Shown: positions 45,005 through 57,178 of the stretch, piece by piece
How the letters are laid out: each line of letters starts with the position of its first letter
Numbering within the stretch: the first letter of the stretch is position 1
Origin: Escherichia coli
GTDB lineage: Bacteria; Pseudomonadota; Gammaproteobacteria; Enterobacterales; Enterobacteriaceae
Length of the DNA stretch: 64,000 bases
Assembly: GCF_050920415.1 (NCBI RefSeq)
Contig: NZ_CP169309.1
Reading direction: 5' to 3' (one strand)
Made by a program: the position numbers and the translations under genes
The notes under the pieces: generated by a model
Seen by the model: the letters and a program-made list of their open reading frames with translations, nothing else
What the model was told of the DNA's origin: nothing
Database searches by the model: none

Positions 45005-46705
45005 TTATTCAACCTCTTCACAGACATCCTGAATTAATCGCCGCATAATATCTTTCCTTAACAAAAACTTTTGTATTTTACCTGATGCAGTACGTGGTAA
45101 TTTCTCTGTTACCACAATATGTTCAGGATATTTATATTTTGCTACCCGTTTACGGCTAAAAAAAGCCACTATGTCTTCCAGCGATATTGAATGATGCGGC
45201 GCTTTCAGCACGACATAAGCGCATGAACGTTCACCTAAACGTTCATCGGGCATCGCAACCACACAGGCATCATGAATTTTAGGATGCTGTAATAAAATAT
45301 CTTCCACTTCACGACTGCTAATATTTTCCCCGCCGCGGACAATAATATCTTTCTTGCGCCCGGTTATTTTTATATAGCCAGCTTCATCCATTCGGCAGAG
45401 ATCGCCGCTGTAATACCAGCCTTCTTCATCCAGCGCACGGGCGGTTAATTCCGGTTCATCAAAATAACCCATAAACACATTGGGACCACGCGAAGCCTCT
45501 TCACCTACACAACCAGGCGGTAAGGTCTTGCGTGCATCATCGACCACTTTAATCTCTACGCCTGCGGCAGCGTAACCATCGGTGTTCATAAAGCGCGACA
45601 AAGGATCGTCGAGATTTACCACCGCATGCGGCGAACTTTCTGTGGAACCATAAACACTTAATAATTTAATGCCGCGTTGTTGGCATTCACGCGCCACCTT
45701 TTTGGGGATCGTGGTGCCGCCGCAAAGAAAGAAGCGTAGTGCAGAAAGGTCTGCGGGCTGTTTCTCCAGTAAATTCAAAAGGTCATAGACAAACGGTGTT
45801 GCGCCGAGCATGCAGGTACACCGTTGCTGCTCAAGTAGCAAAAGACAGGCTTCCGGGGTAAAGATATCTAACAACACGCTGCGAGCGCCAATTAAAAATG
45901 GTGCCGTTACGCCATGCAGAAAGCCCGTTGCGTGACCGAGTGGTGCAGGCATCATAAAGACATCCTGCCAGGTCAGGTTCAGCCGCGCGCAATATGCCCG
46001 CTCACTGGCGAGAATATTGTTATGCGTTAGCATCACGCCCTTTGGCTGCCCCTCAGTTCCGGAGGTAAATAGCACTGCTGCTAATTCATCGCCGTGGGTC
46101 GTTATCGCCGTAGTCAGTGGGGTATTGTCGGCGAGAATCTGACTTAATGAGAGGGACGAGGTGGCGGGAGCCAGTTTGTCCACGCCGACAATTTGTTGTA
46201 GTTGTGGAAGCTGATTTTGCAGCGGCAGGATTAAATCTACCGGACGCGTTTGTTTAAACAACGTCGGTGCAAAGAACATTTTTGCCTGACACTTATTGAG
46301 CACCCACACCAGTTCTGCTTCCCGCCAGGAAGGTAACAGCGGCACGGAAACCGCACCGGTTTTCAGGCAGGCAAGATAGATAACGGTAAATTCACACCAG
46401 CCTGGCAGTTGAAATGCGATGCGATCCCCTGATTCAATACCCTTCGCCAGCATCCAGTTTGCCAGACAGCTCGCGGCATGATCGAGCTCGCTATAGGTGT
46501 ACGATGCACCATGATTATCGACCACGGCAATTTTATCTGGCATCGCACGAGCGGTCTGCTGCCAGTAATCGGCCAGCGAAGCATCGCCCCATAATCCTTG
46601 CTGACGATACGCCGCACGACGTTGTTCGTTAAACGTTAATGTCACTTTCATTTTGGACTCTCGAAACAGAACATCAGGCCCGAGATACGGGCCTGTGGGA
46701 TGCAT
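45005..46705 (-). CDS. fadK: short/medium-chain acyl-CoA synthetase (anaerobic)
   Basis: 566-aa ORF with AMP-binding motif (TSGTEGQPKGV); alternative start MKVTLTF at 46651 (548 aa) cannot be excluded; ATG at 46705 lies 2 nt after ydiT stop. Confidence 0.88.
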   Translation of the reverse strand: MHPTGPYLGPDVLFRESKMKVTLTFNEQRRAAYRQQGLWGDASLADYWQQTARAMPDKIAVVDNHGASYTYSELDHAASCLANWMLAKGIESGDRIAFQLPGWCEFTVIYLACLKTGAVSVPLLPSWREAELVWVLNKCQAKMFFAPTLFKQTRPVDLILPLQNQLPQLQQIVGVDKLAPATSSLSLSQILADNTPLTTAITTHGDELAAVLFTSGTEGQPKGVMLTHNNILASERAYCARLNLTWQDVFMMPAPLGHATGFLHGVTAPFLIGARSVLLDIFTPEACLLLLEQQRCTCMLGATPFVYDLLNLLEKQPADLSALRFFLCGGTTIPKKVARECQQRGIKLLSVYGSTESSPHAVVNLDDPLSRFMNTDGYAAAGVEIKVVDDARKTLPPGCVGEEASRGPNVFMGYFDEPELTARALDEEGWYYSGDLCRMDEAGYIKITGRKKDIIVRGGENISSREVEDILLQHPKIHDACVVAMPDERLGERSCAYVVLKAPHHSISLEDIVAFFSRKRVAKYKYPEHIVVTEKLPRTASGKIQKFLLRKDIMRRLIQDVCEEVE

Positions 46706-46707
46706 GA

Positions 46708-47001
46708 TTAGCCGTAGCGAAAATCAATACCGAAGGTGCCTGCGGGATATTGCCACTGTTCGAGAATCGTATTGCCACACAACACCCGACAGGTGCCGCA
46801 TTCGAGACAACCGGCGGAATCAAAATGTATGTTTCCTGCGTCATCCTGCTTATACAGTCCGGCAGGGCAAGCTTTCATTAATTTACGGAATTCATTGATA
46901 TCGGGATTTGCCGCCAGAATGATATGCGGGTGACCCTCATCAACATGGAATTTATTGACACCTAATTTGATGTCGACGTTAACCGTAGCGTTCTGGCTCA
47001 T
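46708..47001 (-). CDS. ydiT: ferredoxin-like protein (FixX-like)
   Basis: 97-aa ORF with Cys cluster (CPAGLY..., CLECGTCRVLC); 4-nt overlap with ydiS. Confidence 0.88.
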   Translation of the reverse strand: MSQNATVNVDIKLGVNKFHVDEGHPHIILAANPDINEFRKLMKACPAGLYKQDDAGNIHFDSAGCLECGTCRVLCGNTILEQWQYPAGTFGIDFRYG

Positions 47002-55028: not shown

Positions 55029-55895
55029 TCAGGCACCGAACCCCATGACCTGTTTAACATATTCCAGAGGGAAATCTTTGCCAGTCCATAACGTGAACTG
55101 TTCAGCCCCTTGCCACAACAACATGCCGTATCCATCAATCGTTTTGCAACCAGCTTGTTGCGCCTGCTGCAATAACTTCGTCATATGCGGGTTATACACG
55201 CATTCAGTGACCAGAAGTCCCGGATGTAACAGACTGATATCATTAACCAATGATTCATTCTCAAGGGGTTTCATGCCCACTTTTGTGCCATTGGTTAAAA
55301 TGTCGGCGGAAGCCAGGGCTTCAGCAAAGGCTTGCTGATCGGCGAGATCGGTAACCGTGACGACACAATCGGTGTTTTCGTTAACCCGCTGCGCGAAGGC
55401 GAGGGCTTTATCGAAGAACTCATCCCGACGGTTAAAGAGTTTAATTTCTTTTAAACCTTCAATTGCCCCCTGCGCGCCAATTGCCGTTGAGGCACCTCCG
55501 GCCCCTAACAGCACCATCGTTTTGCCTTTGATATCAAAACCGCTCTCTTTAATGGCGCGAATATGGCCCGTGCCGTCGGTGTTATAGCCACGCAGATAGC
55601 CATCATCATTTACGATGGTGTTGATGGCACCCACCAGTTTGGCTGCTGGCGTTAATTCATCAACATATTCACACGCCAGTTGTTTGTTCGGCATTGATAC
55701 ACCAGTTCCGCGCATTTTGAGGGCTTTTAATCCTTCAATTGCTCCGGGAAAACTATCGTTATCCACTTCAAAGGCCATATAGGTAAATGGCAATCCCGCT
55801 TTTTCTAAGGCTTTGTTCTGCATTTCGGGCGATAAACTGTGGCGGATGGGATAGGCCATCAACCCAATCAATTCGTATTTTGCGGTAACATCCAT
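55029..55895 (-). CDS. ydiB: quinate/shikimate dehydrogenase (NAD(P)-dependent)
   Basis: 288-aa ORF; AroE-family with Rossmann motif ([12 protein letters not shown]). Confidence 0.93.
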
Positions 55896-55906
55896 AATTA
55901 ACTCCT

Positions 55907-57178
55907 TTAACCTCTATGCTTAATTGTGTTTAACCGGGTGCTAAATTTATGCTCGCCAAACCGCACATCATTTTCAGGAATAATGAAAACGCGGTAATAG
56001 CGGATAAAAACAATAATTGCGGTAATCAGGGCCAGCAGCGCGAAAGTAAAATCGAGAACAATGATATATTGCAGGCCGATGTTCGACAGATAACCGGTAA
56101 TCAGCGGAATAACAAAGTTAGCCAGTCCACCCATCATCATATATATACTGGTGACTTTGGCTTTGCTTTTGGGGAAAAACTCTGACATGACCGAAACGCC
56201 GAGCTGTAAAATGCCGCCAGCTGCTGAGAAACCGATAACAAAGGCTCCGGCATTACACACCAGTGGAGAAGGGTACAGGTAGATAATGGCAGCTGTTATT
56301 GTTGCCAGTGCAGAGTTAAATACATTAGCCCAGATGGGCCGGACCATTTTTTTCAGCAGTGCGGCAAAAATAAAGACACAGACCAGCGAACCCATACTGT
56401 AATAAGAGATGGTTTTTAATGCCTCAGCTTCTGACATACCAGCAAAAGCCATCGCATATTTGGGCATCCACACCACAATCACATAAAAGGTCGAGAATGC
56501 GGCTACACCGAACAGTACCGATGAAACACCTTCCAGCCAGACTAACGGTTTGCTGTTCATTTGCGGTAATTCATTAGCTACGCTGGCGTCCACCAACTGG
56601 CTGGGGAATTTGCTTTTCAACAGCATCAGCGTGATCAGTACAAACAGAATACCCGGAATAATCAGCCCATAGCCGTACCAGATATTATTGAGCAACATAT
56701 AGCTCACCAGCATTGGGTAGAACATTTGCCCGAATGACACCATCGCTTTAACCAGTATGACTGCCGAACCAGAGGCTTTCGGAAAGCATTCCATGAGCGC
56801 AGGGTAGCCACCCGTATCCAGCGCTGAGTTAGCGATACCTACGCACACTGCCAGACAGTAGGCGAGAGTTAAATTCGGGCAAGCGGGAATACCAAAGAAG
56901 AATAGCAGATACATTATTACTGCCATTAATATCACCGCCCGACGACCAAACTTATCGGAGATCACACCGAAGAATAAAATACTGATCAATCGCCCCAAAC
57001 CGATACCGGAAATTAAATAGGCAATGCCCGCGTTGTCAGTGGAAAACTTTTCTGCCAGAGATGACATATTTTGGGCAAGCGTAATAACACTAATGCCGTG
57101 CAGAAAATAGCTGAAGTAAATACAAAGAACAGCCAGGATAAATGGCGTGCTGAAAGCCTTATTTTGAGACATTTTCAC
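55907..57178 (-). CDS. ydiN: MFS transporter
   Basis: 423-aa 12-TM-like ORF; start may be 2 codons downstream (MSQNKAF, 57172). Confidence 0.85.

What the first reader, a model, noticed from the sequence alone, without database searches (positions are those of the whole stretch)
45005..57178. Cryptic anaerobic acyl-CoA module (fadK-ydiTSRQ, ydiP, ydiO, ydiF) adjacent to quinate/shikimate genes; substrate unknown
Read from the translations, this block encodes an acyl-CoA synthetase (fadK), a four-gene FixABCX-like electron-transfer flavoprotein set (ydiQRST), a CaiA-like acyl-CoA dehydrogenase or enoyl-CoA reductase (ydiO), a fused family I CoA-transferase (ydiF) and a divergent AraC regulator (ydiP). 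That architecture parallels the carnitine cai/fix system and implies reductive or oxidative handling of a specific carboxylic acid through its CoA thioester. Immediately adjacent, on the same strand, are aroD, a quinate/shikimate dehydrogenase (ydiB) and two MFS transporters (ydiN, ydiM). The co-localisation suggests, as inference only, that the natural substrate may be a hydroaromatic or other plant-derived acid. The genes are known; the physiological substrate and inducer are, to my knowledge, unresolved.
Basis: partly seen in the sequence, partly recalled or inferred. Interest (0 to 1): 0.4.

Follow-up and report, generated by a model that had tools for sequence, protein, structure and literature searches.

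The report
Quinate/shikimate-linked acyl-CoA reductase gene block
A known but poorly understood E. coli gene block (fadK-ydiQRST-ydiP-ydiO-ydiF) stays joined to quinate/shikimate genes across distant bacteria and shares a control-site pattern with them, so it probably processes these plant acids as CoA esters rather than ordinary fatty acids; no experiment has tested this.

Summary
The window is E. coli chromosome, and 45005-57178 holds fadK, ydiTSRQ, ydiP, ydiO, ydiF, aroD, ydiB and ydiN, with ydiM and ydiL next door. All family assignments hold.

- The block ydiL-M-N-B-aroD-F-O/P/QRST-fadK is collinear in about 10 enterobacterial genera, with different flanks.
- It recurs rearranged in Sutterella, and as one operon with aroD inside the ETF genes in an unidentified organism.
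- YdiF homologues of 58-64% identity in Firmicutes and Actinomycetes sit beside type II and/or type I dehydroquinase.
- The same three-box array (spacing 21 and 73 bp) lies upstream of ydiQ and of ydiN, and nowhere else in 64 kb.
- YdiO shares CaiA's relocated catalytic glutamate, unlike butyryl-CoA dehydrogenase. FadK's nearest other family is cyclohexanecarboxylate-CoA ligase.

Best reading (confidence about 0.45): YdiB and AroD turn quinate into shikimate or dehydroshikimate. FadK and YdiF make the CoA ester. YdiO with YdiQRST reduces the ring double bond, as Cai/Fix does for carnitine.

The published roles (anaerobic fatty-acid or butyrate oxidation, YdiP as a cold-shock regulator) remain rivals. 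No biochemistry exists for the hydroaromatic reading.

The parts
45005..46651 (-). fadK (ydiD), an AMP-forming acyl-CoA synthetase. Proposed role: ATP-dependent priming of the CoA-ester pool.
   Evidence: RefSeq annotation. Pfam AMP-binding. NCBIfam matches its own equivalog; the second-best family is TIGR03208 cyclohexanecarboxylate-CoA ligase at 427 bits, below that family's cutoff. 29% identical to CaiC.
46708..47001 (-). ydiT, a FixX-like ferredoxin.
   Evidence: 63% identical to FixX. Weak Fer4_9 hit.
46998..48287 (-). ydiS, a FixC-like FAD oxidoreductase with an ETF-QO quinone-binding domain.
   Evidence: 62% identical to FixC. PF21162 ETFQO_UQ-bd. NCBIfam PRK10015.
48343..49281 (-). ydiR, ETF alpha subunit (FixB-like).
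   Evidence: Pfam ETF and ETF_alpha. 45% identical to FixB.
49301..50065 (-). ydiQ, ETF beta subunit (FixA-like).
   Evidence: Pfam ETF. 54% identical to FixA.
50181..50284 (-). Three same-orientation boxes WRCAAGAT, at 50181-50191, 50254-50264 and 50274-50284 (spacing 73 and 21 bp), in the ydiP-ydiQ spacer. Candidate YdiP operator.
   Evidence: Conserved in the 36 enterobacterial loci that carry ydiP (34 with two or three boxes, one with a single box). Found independently by the repeat finder. Coordinates.
50381..51292 (+). ydiP, an AraC-family regulator with a cupin ligand domain. Divergent from ydiQ.
   Evidence: Pfam. AraC genes 35-38% identical lie next to ydiF homologues in Firmicutes.
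51295..51333 (.). GC-rich hairpin between the convergent ydiO and ydiP genes. Likely a bidirectional terminator.
   Evidence: Sequence CTGGCGGCGCAG-N12-CTGCGCCGCCTGCAG.
51335..52486 (-). ydiO, a CaiA-like acyl-CoA dehydrogenase-family protein. Proposed enoyl-CoA reductase.
   Evidence: 48% identical to CaiA. The canonical YEG catalytic Glu is replaced by GGG, and a Glu sits in FEMERL, as in CaiA and unlike butyryl-CoA dehydrogenase 1BUC.
52500..54095 (-). ydiF, a fused family I CoA-transferase. Proposed role: cycling CoA between product and incoming acid.
   Evidence: Identical family to PDB 2AHU/2AHV/2AHW. Motifs ETGPIG (E333) and GTGGF. Its clade at >=58% identity is linked to dehydroquinase genes.
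54202..54229 (.). GC-rich hairpin just after the aroD stop codon.
   Evidence: Comparable hairpins follow aroD in other genera. On the minus strand it is followed by an A-run, so it is not a canonical terminator.
54240..54998 (-). aroD, type I 3-dehydroquinate dehydratase.
   Evidence: TIGR01093. Retained in every rearranged version of the block.
55029..55895 (-). ydiB, quinate/shikimate dehydrogenase.
   Evidence: NCBIfam equivalog PRK12749.
55907..57172 (-). ydiN, an MFS transporter.
   Evidence: Pfam MFS_1. Literature links YdiM/YdiN homologues to shikimate-pathway genes (PMC10588857).
57297..57400 (-). Second three-box array, at 57297-57306, 57370-57379 and 57391-57400, with the same spacing (73 and 21 bp) and orientation, upstream of ydiN.
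   Evidence: The triple pattern occurs exactly twice in the 64-kb window. The expected count by chance is about 4e-6.
57399..58613 (-). ydiM, an MFS transporter paralogous to ydiN.
   Evidence: Part of the conserved block in Enterobacterales.
58712..59068 (-). ydiL, an Aca2/YdiL-family HTH protein.
   Evidence: PF08965. Marks the edge of the conserved block.
59149..59169 (+). Conserved box-like site about 100 bp upstream of ydiL, in the opposite orientation.
   Evidence: PWM hits at ydiL -97 to -107 in 27 loci. Coordinates.

Best explanation
The roughly 14-kb block from ydiL to fadK is one functional unit for anaerobic handling of the plant hydroaromatic acids quinate and shikimate as CoA thioesters.

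Proposed steps:
1. YdiN and YdiM move the acids (and probably the product) across the membrane (inferred).
2. YdiB oxidises quinate to 3-dehydroquinate, AroD dehydrates it to 3-dehydroshikimate, and YdiB reduces that to shikimate. These are known activities of the enzymes.
3. FadK makes the first CoA thioester with ATP. YdiF then passes CoA from product to incoming substrate (inferred, by analogy with CaiC/CaiB and CarB/CarA).
4. YdiO reduces the ring C1=C2 bond of shikimoyl-CoA (or 3-dehydroshikimoyl-CoA), using electrons delivered by YdiQR with YdiS and YdiT (inferred, by analogy with CaiA and FixABCX).
5. The saturated acid is released.

Step 2 matters for a chemical reason. Quinate has no alpha-hydrogen, whereas shikimate and dehydroshikimate are alpha,beta-unsaturated acids. 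Their CoA esters are therefore 2-enoyl-CoAs, like crotonobetainyl-CoA.

The net effect is an electron sink of the 'enoate respiration' kind. YdiP probably switches on both the ydiN-ydiB-aroD and the ydiQRST-fadK promoters through the shared three-box operators (inferred).

Activity on butyrate and C6-C8 fatty acids would then be side activity.
For: Shown here:
- Collinear conservation of the whole block in Escherichia, Citrobacter, Kosakonia, Serratia, Yersinia, Brenneria, Dickeya, Symbiopectobacterium and Prodigiosinella, with ydiK and ppsA flanks only in Escherichia and Citrobacter.
- The same gene set rearranged in Sutterella as two divergent operons, with YdiF 83%, YdiO 80-84% and YdiB 75-76% identical.
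- Locus L088: MFS-ydiF-ydiO-ydiQ-ydiR-aroD-fixC-fixX-fadK, with dehydroquinase inside the ETF operon.
- The YdiF clade at >=58% identity is linked to type I and/or type II dehydroquinase. Outgroups at 45-57% identity are not.
- Identical three-box architecture upstream of ydiQ and ydiN, occurring only twice in 64 kb. The boxes are absent in Sutterella, which lacks ydiP.
- YdiO/CaiA and YdiQRST/FixABCX paralogy.
- YdiO and CaiA share a relocated catalytic Glu, unlike butyryl-CoA dehydrogenase.
- FadK's best non-self family is cyclohexanecarboxylate-CoA ligase.
- The next-closest YdiO homologues (62-69% identical) sit in differently equipped CoA-loop modules without aro genes.

From the literature:
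- YdiM/YdiN homologues neighbour shikimate-pathway genes in about 75% of cases (PMC10588857).
- ydiN, aroD and ydiB are reported to respond to shikimate (PMC2672614).
- ydiQRST are among the genes most changed between phases of a shikimate-overproducing culture (PMC4015609).
- FNR binds at ydiP/ydiQ in vivo (PMC1802558).
- Gut flora reduce shikimate to cyclohexanecarboxylate (Brewster 1978, as cited in PMC7558350).
Against: - No enzyme of the CoA module has been assayed with a hydroaromatic acid.
- FadK is active on C6-C8 fatty acids, and fadD fadK mutants lose anaerobic growth on fatty acids (PMC9329746).
- YdiF works on acetate and lactate with acetoacetyl-CoA (PMC9636275).
- Salmonella ydiQRSTD is linked to butyrate use (PMC9530198, PMC6249985).
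- Gulevich 2016 assigns ydiO/ydiQRST to fatty-acid oxidation (PMC10318755).
- aroD is the housekeeping dehydroquinase of E. coli, so its presence in itself is not evidence of catabolism.
- Klebsiella is reported to have aroD-ydiM-ydiB, with ydiM but no ydiN orthologue (PMC10588857), so the aro part occurs in another layout. Whether the CoA genes are absent there was neither reported nor tested.
- A hairpin after aroD and a 144-bp spacer suggest that ydiFO is a separate transcription unit with no three-box array.
- Published YdiP ChIP-seq (15 C, aerobic) reported no ydi sites and proposed a cold-shock role.
- The shikimate-culture transcriptome has no non-producer control, and the direction of change is ambiguous.
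Confidence: 0.45

Rival explanations
1. Generic anaerobic short/medium-chain fatty-acid (butyrate, C6-C8) beta-oxidation. FadK activates the acid, and YdiO with YdiQRST acts as the acyl-CoA dehydrogenase/ETF pair feeding the quinone pool. The aro/ydiB/ydiN neighbours are unrelated.
For: - FadK in vitro specificity and the fadD fadK phenotype (PMC9329746).
- Salmonella ydiQRSTD and ydiD are linked to butyrate utilisation with electron acceptors.
- Gulevich 2016.
- Nuccio and Baumler network annotation.
Against: - Co-conservation with dehydroquinase and quinate dehydrogenase persists through rearrangement and inter-class transfer.
- The ydiN and ydiQ upstream regions share an operator architecture.
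- The block has no hydratase, 3-hydroxyacyl-CoA dehydrogenase or thiolase.
- YdiO lacks the YEG catalytic Glu of butyryl-CoA dehydrogenases.
- The review finds no FadR or CRP control, disputed anaerobic induction, and 'experimental evidence is lacking' for YdiQR.
Confidence: 0.2
2. Two separate pathways that travel and are regulated together because their substrates arrive together. YdiN, YdiB and AroD salvage quinate or shikimate into aromatic biosynthesis. The CoA module reduces another plant acid, for example a hydroxycinnamate released with quinate from chlorogenic acid, as CarABCDE does for caffeate.
For: - CarC caffeyl-CoA reductase (6FAH) is among the YdiO homologues, and the part list matches Car.
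- ydiB and ydiN mutants are reported to have shikimate-related auxotrophy phenotypes.
- Klebsiella has aroD-ydiM-ydiB in a different layout.
- A hairpin separates aroD from ydiF.
Against: - Firmicute cassettes contain only a transporter, dehydroquinase, YdiF, a MaoC hydratase, a KPR-like reductase and a VOC protein. The CoA-transferase therefore has no obvious substrate other than a hydroaromatic acid.
- aroD is embedded inside the ETF operon in L088.
- FadK is nearest to an alicyclic-acid ligase, not a cinnamate ligase.
Confidence: 0.15
3. The substrate is hydroaromatic but the chemistry differs. One option is the oxidative direction: saturated alicyclic acids such as dihydroshikimate are oxidised via CoA esters to shikimate for salvage. 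Another is that further, unencoded steps lead to cyclohexanecarboxylate.
For: - Acyl-CoA dehydrogenases are reversible in principle, and YdiS carries an ETF-QO quinone-binding domain.
- Gut flora make cyclohexanecarboxylate from shikimate.
Against: - The closest characterised paralogue system, CaiA with FixABCX, works reductively (annotated crotonobetainyl-CoA reductase).
- YdiB and AroD generate the unsaturated acid, which fits reduction.
- The block encodes no dehydratases for removing hydroxyl groups.
Confidence: 0.08

Closest known systems
E. coli carnitine system caiTABCDE + fixABCX
   Same: - A CaiA-type reductase (48% identical, same relocated catalytic Glu).
- A four-gene FixABCX-type electron-transfer set (45-63% identical).
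- An AMP-forming CoA ligase (29% identical).
- A CoA-transferase 'CoA loop', a dedicated transporter and an anaerobic setting.
   Different: - The CoA-transferase is family I (YdiF), not family III (CaiB).
- The transporters are MFS, not BCCT.
- There is no CaiD hydratase or CaiE. The dehydration that creates the double bond is proposed to occur on the free acid by AroD.
- The regulator is AraC-type, not CaiF.
- The substrate class is different and unproven.
Caffeate respiration CarABCDE of Acetobacterium woodii (recalled from the literature; CarC structure 6FAH)
   Same: The same logic for a plant-derived unsaturated acid: priming ligase (CarB / FadK), CoA-transferase loop (CarA / YdiF), and an ACAD-family enoyl-CoA reductase with ETF (CarCDE / YdiO-QR). 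CarC is detected as a YdiO homologue.
   Different: Car has no FixC/FixX partners and no quinate or shikimate genes. YdiO is much closer to CaiA than to CarC.
Proposed anaerobic fatty-acid beta-oxidation set (fadK, ydiO, ydiQRST with fadIJ)
   Same: These are the same genes, and this is the current textbook and annotation label.
   Different: That label does not explain three findings: the conserved linkage to aroD/ydiB/ydiN, the shared operator, and the non-Bcd active-site layout.
Classical quinate/shikimate catabolic clusters (qui/qsu/qut) leading to protocatechuate
   Same: Quinate/shikimate dehydrogenase, dehydroquinase and a transporter.
   Different: There is no dehydroshikimate dehydratase and no ring-cleavage genes. 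A CoA-thioester module stands in their place.
Shikimate-to-cyclohexanecarboxyl-CoA route of Streptomyces/Alicyclobacillus (ansJKLM-chcA; recalled from the literature)
   Same: Shikimate is handled as a CoA ester by a CoA ligase, with ACAD-like and enoyl-CoA reductase steps.
   Different: That route is biosynthetic, has different enzyme families for several steps, and has no ETF/FixCX set. Homology to the ydi proteins was not tested here.

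Membership tests
Cai/Fix-type CoA-loop enoyl-CoA reductase system | CaiA-like ACAD-family reductase | tested here: met
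   YdiO is 48% identical to CaiA over the full length. Both have Gly at the canonical YEG Glu position and a Glu in the F(E/D)xER motif. The NCBIfam CaiA model scores 450 bits, below its 540 cutoff, so YdiO is a paralogue and not CaiA itself.
Cai/Fix-type CoA-loop enoyl-CoA reductase system | FixABCX-type four-subunit electron-transfer set | tested here: met
   YdiQ/R/S/T are 54/45/62/63% identical to FixA/B/C/X.
Cai/Fix-type CoA-loop enoyl-CoA reductase system | Family III (CaiB-type) CoA-transferase | tested here: not met
   YdiF gives no BLAST hit to CaiB. It is a family I enzyme (PF01144; PDB 2AHU). The role is analogous, not homologous.
Cai/Fix-type CoA-loop enoyl-CoA reductase system | ATP-dependent CoA ligase for priming | tested here: met
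   FadK is 29% identical to CaiC over 534 residues.
Cai/Fix-type CoA-loop enoyl-CoA reductase system | Reductive direction, with the substrate used as an electron sink | not testable with these tools
   Needs anaerobic physiology and enzyme assays.
Anaerobic straight-chain fatty-acid beta-oxidation module | Butyryl/short-chain acyl-CoA dehydrogenase active site (catalytic Glu in the C-terminal YEG motif) | tested here: not met
   1BUC 'iYEGTnev' aligns to YdiO 'igGGTdei'. GGG is conserved in 46 of 48 YdiO-like sequences covering the site; the other two have AGG.
Anaerobic straight-chain fatty-acid beta-oxidation module | Hydratase, 3-hydroxyacyl-CoA dehydrogenase and thiolase encoded with the module | tested here: not met
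   All 13 genes of the block are accounted for and none belongs to these families. Gaps between genes are at most 315 bp.
Anaerobic straight-chain fatty-acid beta-oxidation module | Acyl-CoA synthetase active on fatty acids, and mutant phenotypes on fatty acids | not testable with these tools
   Literature only: FadK on C6-C8 acids and the fadD fadK phenotype (PMC9329746); Salmonella and butyrate (PMC9530198).
Classical quinate/shikimate-to-protocatechuate catabolism | Quinate/shikimate dehydrogenase plus dehydroquinase | tested here: met
   YdiB matches NCBIfam equivalog PRK12749, and AroD matches TIGR01093.
Classical quinate/shikimate-to-protocatechuate catabolism | Dehydroshikimate dehydratase and aromatic ring-cleavage genes | tested here: not met
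   No such gene lies between ppsA and ydiK.
Family I CoA-transferase (fused alpha/beta) | CoA_trans fold with the catalytic Glu in EXGXXG and the GXGGF motif | tested here: met
   PF01144. Same sequence family as 2AHU/2AHV/2AHW. ETGPIG at residue 333 and GTGGF at residue 398.
AraC-family regulator with tandem direct-repeat operator | Same-orientation repeats about 21 bp apart near the regulated promoters | tested here: met
   Boxes 21 bp apart, plus a third 73 bp away, lie upstream of ydiQ and of ydiN. Binding by YdiP itself was not tested.

The most novel reading that the evidence does not exclude
The ydi block, together with the Firmicute/Actinomycete cassettes built around YdiF homologues (YdiF, MaoC hydratase, KPR-like reductase, VOC protein and dehydroquinase), represents two branches of an unrecognised CoA-thioester-dependent anaerobic metabolism of quinate and shikimate in gut and plant-associated bacteria. 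In E. coli, Salmonella, Citrobacter and Sutterella it would be a Cai/Fix-like 'hydroaromatic respiration'. That would supply candidate genes for the long-known microbial step of the dietary quinate/shikimate to cyclohexanecarboxylate to hippurate route. It would also give YdiB a physiological role.
Probability: 0.35. Interest if true: 0.75.

Novelty: new member of a known kind. Interest (0 to 1): 0.55.

Why it matters
Eight to thirteen E. coli genes are still unassigned or loosely labelled 'anaerobic fatty-acid oxidation'. This reading would give them a coherent, testable function.

It would also:
- explain why E. coli keeps an NAD-linked quinate/shikimate dehydrogenase although it cannot grow on quinate;
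- add a third example, after carnitine and caffeate, of CoA-loop enoyl-CoA reduction as an anaerobic electron sink;
- point to specific genes and bacteria for the microbial part of the diet-to-hippurate axis, for which a 2025 study still states that the responsible bacteria are unknown (PMC12655642).

It would also change how the Salmonella ydiQRSTD deletion in typhoidal serovars is interpreted.

Tried and rejected
- Literature searches for a prior link between ydiF/ydiO/ydiQRST and quinate or shikimate found none. 'Dihydroshikimate' hits were unrelated or loose wording.
- Bronner 2018 and Brewster 1978 are not held, so they are cited only through papers that cite them.
- Generic promoter and terminator scans were no better than shuffles: 18 against 21 and 19 against 17. 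They were used only to locate hairpins.
- The FNR consensus site inside ydiP (50516-50529) matches the published ChIP peak. Among 36 loci it is exact only in L004 (Escherichia sp. MOD1-EC7003), so it is not a conserved feature of the block.
- The YdiP ChIP-seq supplement lists no ydi targets. The peaks seen in the supplement excerpts are broad and fall at tRNA, cspE, ibpA and rhoL genes. This neither supports nor tests the box arrays.
- No three-box array lies upstream of ydiF.
- One YdiO homologue (74% identical, L086/L087) is solitary, with no ETF or aro context.
- Paenibacillus YdiF homologues (57% identical) lack the context.
- The window strain's low identity to most E. coli is lineage-wide, not specific to ydi.

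Full report
**What is there**

The window is E. coli chromosome. Positions 45005-57178 are 100% identical to strain MFDS1022581. The segment is found in 5425 of 5426 complete E. coli genomes.

The RefSeq annotation, moved to window coordinates, gives this order on the minus strand:
- fadK
- ydiT, ydiS, ydiR, ydiQ
- ydiP (on the plus strand)
- ydiO, ydiF
- aroD, ydiB
- ydiN, ydiM, ydiL

ppsA lies on one side. rprA and ydiK lie on the other.

Pfam and NCBIfam confirm each family. The comparison with cai/fix is quantitative:

| ydi protein | cai/fix protein | Identity |
|---|---|---|
| YdiO | CaiA | 48% |
| YdiQ | FixA | 54% |
| YdiR | FixB | 45% |
| YdiS | FixC | 62% |
| YdiT | FixX | 63% |
| FadK | CaiC | 29% |

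YdiF has no similarity to CaiB. It is the family I enzyme solved as 2AHU/2AHV/2AHW, with the ETGPIG (E333) and GTGGF motifs.

**What the literature says**

- FadK is an acyl-CoA synthetase that works best on C6-C8 acids. A fadD fadK mutant cannot use fatty acids.
- A 2022 review states that YdiQR function is unknown, that 'experimental evidence is lacking', that anaerobic induction of fadK is disputed, and that FadR and CRP do not control it (PMC9329746).
- In Salmonella, ydiFO, ydiQRST and fadHIJK are annotated as anaerobic beta-oxidation (PMC3967523).
- Salmonella ydiQRSTD is linked to anaerobic butyrate use (Bronner 2018, as cited in PMC13170390, PMC9530198 and PMC6249985).
- Gulevich 2016 assigns ydiO/ydiQRST to an anaerobic acyl-CoA dehydrogenase complex, but the role of YdiQRST is called unclear (PMC10318755).
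- YdiF makes acetyl- and lactyl-CoA from acetoacetyl-CoA in vitro (PMC9636275).
- YdiP has been proposed as a cold-shock regulator. Its ChIP-seq at 15 C lists no ydi targets, and the peaks seen in the supplement excerpts are broad ones at tRNA genes, cspE, ibpA and rhoL (PMC9283627).
- No paper in the library links the CoA module to quinate or shikimate.
- YdiM and YdiN have been linked by gene neighbourhood to shikimate-pathway genes (PMC10588857; PMC2672614).

**Neighbourhood test**

I anchored on YdiF in one genome per species, with 10 kb on each side. I mapped all window proteins onto the 80 loci.

- The order ydiL-ydiM-ydiN-ydiB-aroD-ydiF-ydiO, ydiP opposite, ydiQRST-fadK is kept in Escherichia, Citrobacter, Kosakonia, Serratia, Yersinia, Brenneria, Dickeya, Symbiopectobacterium and Prodigiosinella.
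- ydiK and ppsA flank the block only in Escherichia and Citrobacter, so the block behaves as a unit.
- In Sutterella (Betaproteobacteria) the set is split into two divergent operons, fadK-ydiTSRQ and ydiN-ydiB-aroD-ydiF-ydiO. YdiF is 83%, YdiO 80-84% and YdiB 75-76% identical.
- A YdiO homologue of 77% identity from an unidentified organism of 43% G+C lies in a single operon: MFS-ydiF-ydiO-ydiQ-ydiR-aroD-fixC-fixX-fadK. Here the dehydroquinase gene sits inside the ETF genes.

That makes three gene orders with one gene set.

The next tier of YdiO homologues (62-69% identical; Desulfovibrio, and a second copy in E. albertii) lies in modules with a CaiB-type transferase, an MFS transporter, ETF and a ligase. 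These modules have no aro genes. One 74% homologue is solitary.

**The YdiF clade outside Proteobacteria**

In Lachnospiraceae (Anaerostipes, Mediterraneibacter), Sedimentibacter, Anaerosolibacter, Lucifera and some Actinomycetes, YdiF homologues of 58-64% identity head a conserved cassette:
- YdiF
- a MaoC-type hydratase
- a ketopantoate-reductase-like oxidoreductase
- a 125-residue glyoxalase/VOC-superfamily protein
- type II dehydroquinase (AroQ)

TRAP or MFS transporters and AraC or LysR regulators often accompany it. The AraC genes are 35-38% identical to YdiP. In two loci ydiB and type I aroD are also present. Brevibacillus keeps the YdiF-MaoC-reductase core, but no dehydroquinase was detected there.

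A neighbour-joining tree places all of these with the proteobacterial YdiF in one clade. Outgroups lack the context: Paenibacillus (57%), Clostridium (48%) and Rhodocyclales (45%).

The two dehydroquinase types are not homologous. Linkage to both therefore points to the activity, not to inherited gene order.

**Shared control sites**

The ydiP-ydiQ spacer carries three same-orientation boxes, WRCAAGAT. Their spacing is 21 and 73 bp, and the proximal box lies about 125 bp before the ydiQ start. Boxes are present in the 36 enterobacterial loci that have ydiP; 34 of them carry two or three, and one carries a single box.

The ydiM-ydiN spacer has the same array:

| Spacer | Box positions in the window |
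|---|---|
| ydiP-ydiQ | 50181-50191, 50254-50264, 50274-50284 |
| ydiM-ydiN | 57297-57306, 57370-57379, 57391-57400 |

- A regular expression for the triple pattern matches exactly twice in the 64-kb window, at these two places. The chance expectation is about 4e-6.
- The repeat finder recovers the 73/21 spacing independently.
- The ydiN array is conserved in other Escherichia species and some Citrobacter.
- The ydiN array is absent where a LysR gene is inserted between ydiM and ydiN (Serratia, Yersinia, Dickeya, Brenneria). It is also absent in Sutterella, which lacks ydiP.

Tandem repeats 21 bp apart are typical of AraC-family operators (established knowledge). Binding by YdiP is an inference.

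ydiF has no such array. A hairpin follows aroD in E. coli and in other genera. ydiFO may therefore be a separate transcription unit.

**Enzyme-level hints**

- Butyryl-CoA dehydrogenase (1BUC) has its catalytic Glu in the motif IYEGT. YdiO has IGGGT and CaiA has VSGGS at that position. Both carry a Glu in F(E/D)xER instead. That is the arrangement I recall from isovaleryl- and long-chain acyl-CoA dehydrogenases, where it makes room for branched substrates.
- The relocated Glu is kept in every YdiO-like sequence that covers the site, and the Gly-rich motif is GGG in 46 of those 48 and AGG in the other two.
- After its own equivalog, FadK scores best against the cyclohexanecarboxylate-CoA ligase model, ahead of the fatty-acid ligase families, though below that model's cutoff. 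A preference for C6-C8 acids in vitro is what one would expect of an enzyme built for a C7 ring acid. This last point is inference.

**Mechanism proposed**

Quinate carries a hydroxyl group, not a hydrogen, on C1. Its CoA ester therefore cannot be a substrate of an acyl-CoA dehydrogenase-type enzyme. Shikimate and 3-dehydroshikimate are cyclohex-1-ene-1-carboxylates, so their CoA esters are 2-enoyl-CoAs. This gives YdiB and AroD a reason to be in the block: they convert quinate into the unsaturated acid.

The remainder mirrors Cai/Fix and, from memory, the caffeate system CarABCDE:
- FadK primes the CoA-ester pool with ATP.
- YdiF recycles CoA from product to incoming substrate.
- YdiO reduces the double bond with electrons from YdiQR, YdiS and YdiT.
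- The MFS pair exchanges substrate and product.

What is shown: gene content, linkage, operator sharing, paralogy and the active-site layout. What is inferred: the substrates, the direction of the reaction, the regulator and the inducer.

**Circumstantial support**

- ydiQ, ydiR, ydiS and ydiT are among the 50 genes called up-regulated in the comparison of two stationary-phase samples of a shikimate-overproducing aroK aroL strain. There was no non-producing control, and the direction of change is ambiguous (PMC4015609).
- FNR binds at ydiP/ydiQ in vivo (PMC1802558). The site (50516-50529) is exact in only one other Escherichia locus among the 36 examined.
- The carriers are gut or plant-associated bacteria.
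- Gut flora are long known to reduce shikimate to cyclohexanecarboxylate, which the host turns into hippurate (Brewster 1978 and Adamson 1970, as cited in PMC7558350). A 2025 study says the responsible bacteria are still unknown (PMC12655642).

**Rivals**

1. Generic anaerobic fatty-acid or butyrate oxidation has the only experimental support. It does not explain the linkage, the shared operator, the absence of the other beta-oxidation enzymes, or the non-Bcd active site.
2. Two independent but co-travelling modules, for example quinate salvage plus hydroxycinnamate reduction, fit the proteobacterial data. They fit the self-contained Firmicute cassettes and L088 less well.
3. Hydroaromatic substrate with different chemistry or direction cannot be excluded.

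I put the CoA-loop reduction of a quinate/shikimate-derived enoyl-CoA at about 0.45. The broader claim, that the physiological substrate of the CoA module is hydroaromatic, is somewhat more likely than that.

**Verdict**

I could not find it stated in the literature searched. It is a new member of a known kind of system (Cai/Fix and Car-type CoA-loop reductases) and is directly testable. Interest 0.55.

Noticed in passing
L056:10007-13954 (also L045, L046, L052-L055, L058-L060): Conserved Firmicute/Actinomycete cassette: YdiF-like CoA-transferase, MaoC hydratase, ketopantoate-reductase-like oxidoreductase, a 125-aa glyoxalase/VOC protein and type II dehydroquinase. TRAP or MFS transporters and AraC or LysR regulators often accompany it. 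It looks like an uncharacterised CoA-dependent quinate/shikimate pathway, distinct from the E. coli version.
   Followed up: partly
L088:7129-17147: Single operon MFS-ydiF-ydiO-ydiQ-ydiR-aroD-fixC-fixX-fadK in an unidentified organism of 43% G+C (Logan ERR12073413). The type I dehydroquinase gene sits between the ETF and FixC genes. Aldo-keto reductases and LysR regulators flank the operon.
   Followed up: partly
L083:7271-17537 and L085:5628-12872: YdiO homologues of 62-69% identity in Desulfovibrio desulfuricans, and a second copy in E. albertii. They lie in a different CoA-loop module: CaiB-type transferase, MFS transporter, a second ACAD and ETF. The Desulfovibrio locus also has FixC/FixX, a beta-lactamase-fold protein and an AMP-ligase. 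Substrate unknown.
   Followed up: no
window 59149-59169: Conserved site TCTTGTGCAAYATTRTTTG about 100 bp upstream of ydiL, between rprA and ydiL. It resembles the ydiQ/ydiN boxes but is in the opposite orientation. It is present in 27 loci.
   Followed up: partly
window 54096-54239; L007, L010, L019 aroD-ydiF spacers: A hairpin follows aroD across genera. In Citrobacter and Kosakonia, GAATATTC-type repeats lie upstream of ydiF. This may be a separate operator for ydiFO. The regulator is unknown.
   Followed up: no
window 46675-46695: An 8-bp GC-rich stem-loop in the 56-nt ydiT-fadK spacer. It could uncouple fadK expression from ydiQRST.
   Followed up: no
window 50516-50529: Exact FNR-type site TTGACGTAAATCAA inside the 5' part of ydiP. 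It matches the published FNR ChIP target ydiP/ydiQ. Among 36 related loci it is exact only in L004 (Escherichia sp. MOD1-EC7003).
   Followed up: yes
L022-L026, L029, L036, L062, L064, L066 (between ydiM and ydiN): In Serratia, Yersinia, Brenneria, Dickeya, Prodigiosinella and Symbiopectobacterium, a LysR-family gene about 37% identical to the LysR next to the Anaerostipes cassette is inserted between ydiM and ydiN, on the opposite strand. The ydiN box array is missing there.
   Followed up: partly
L032 (E. coli strain E69): In this strain a ydiF match covering residues 60-531 (cut at the locus edge) lies directly next to ppsA. This implies deletion of ydiO through fadK.
   Followed up: no
window 59205-59312: RprA small RNA (Rfam RF00034, 118.5 bits) between ydiK and ydiL. 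It is the only Rfam match in 44000-61000.
   Followed up: yes
window 20000-32000 and 45005-57178: The strain belongs to a rare lineage. Only 2 records (ydi segment) and 18 records (20-32 kb segment), out of about 5,425 matching, reach 99% identity. The 20-32 kb segment carries a ShET2/EspL2-family type III effector gene.
   Followed up: partly
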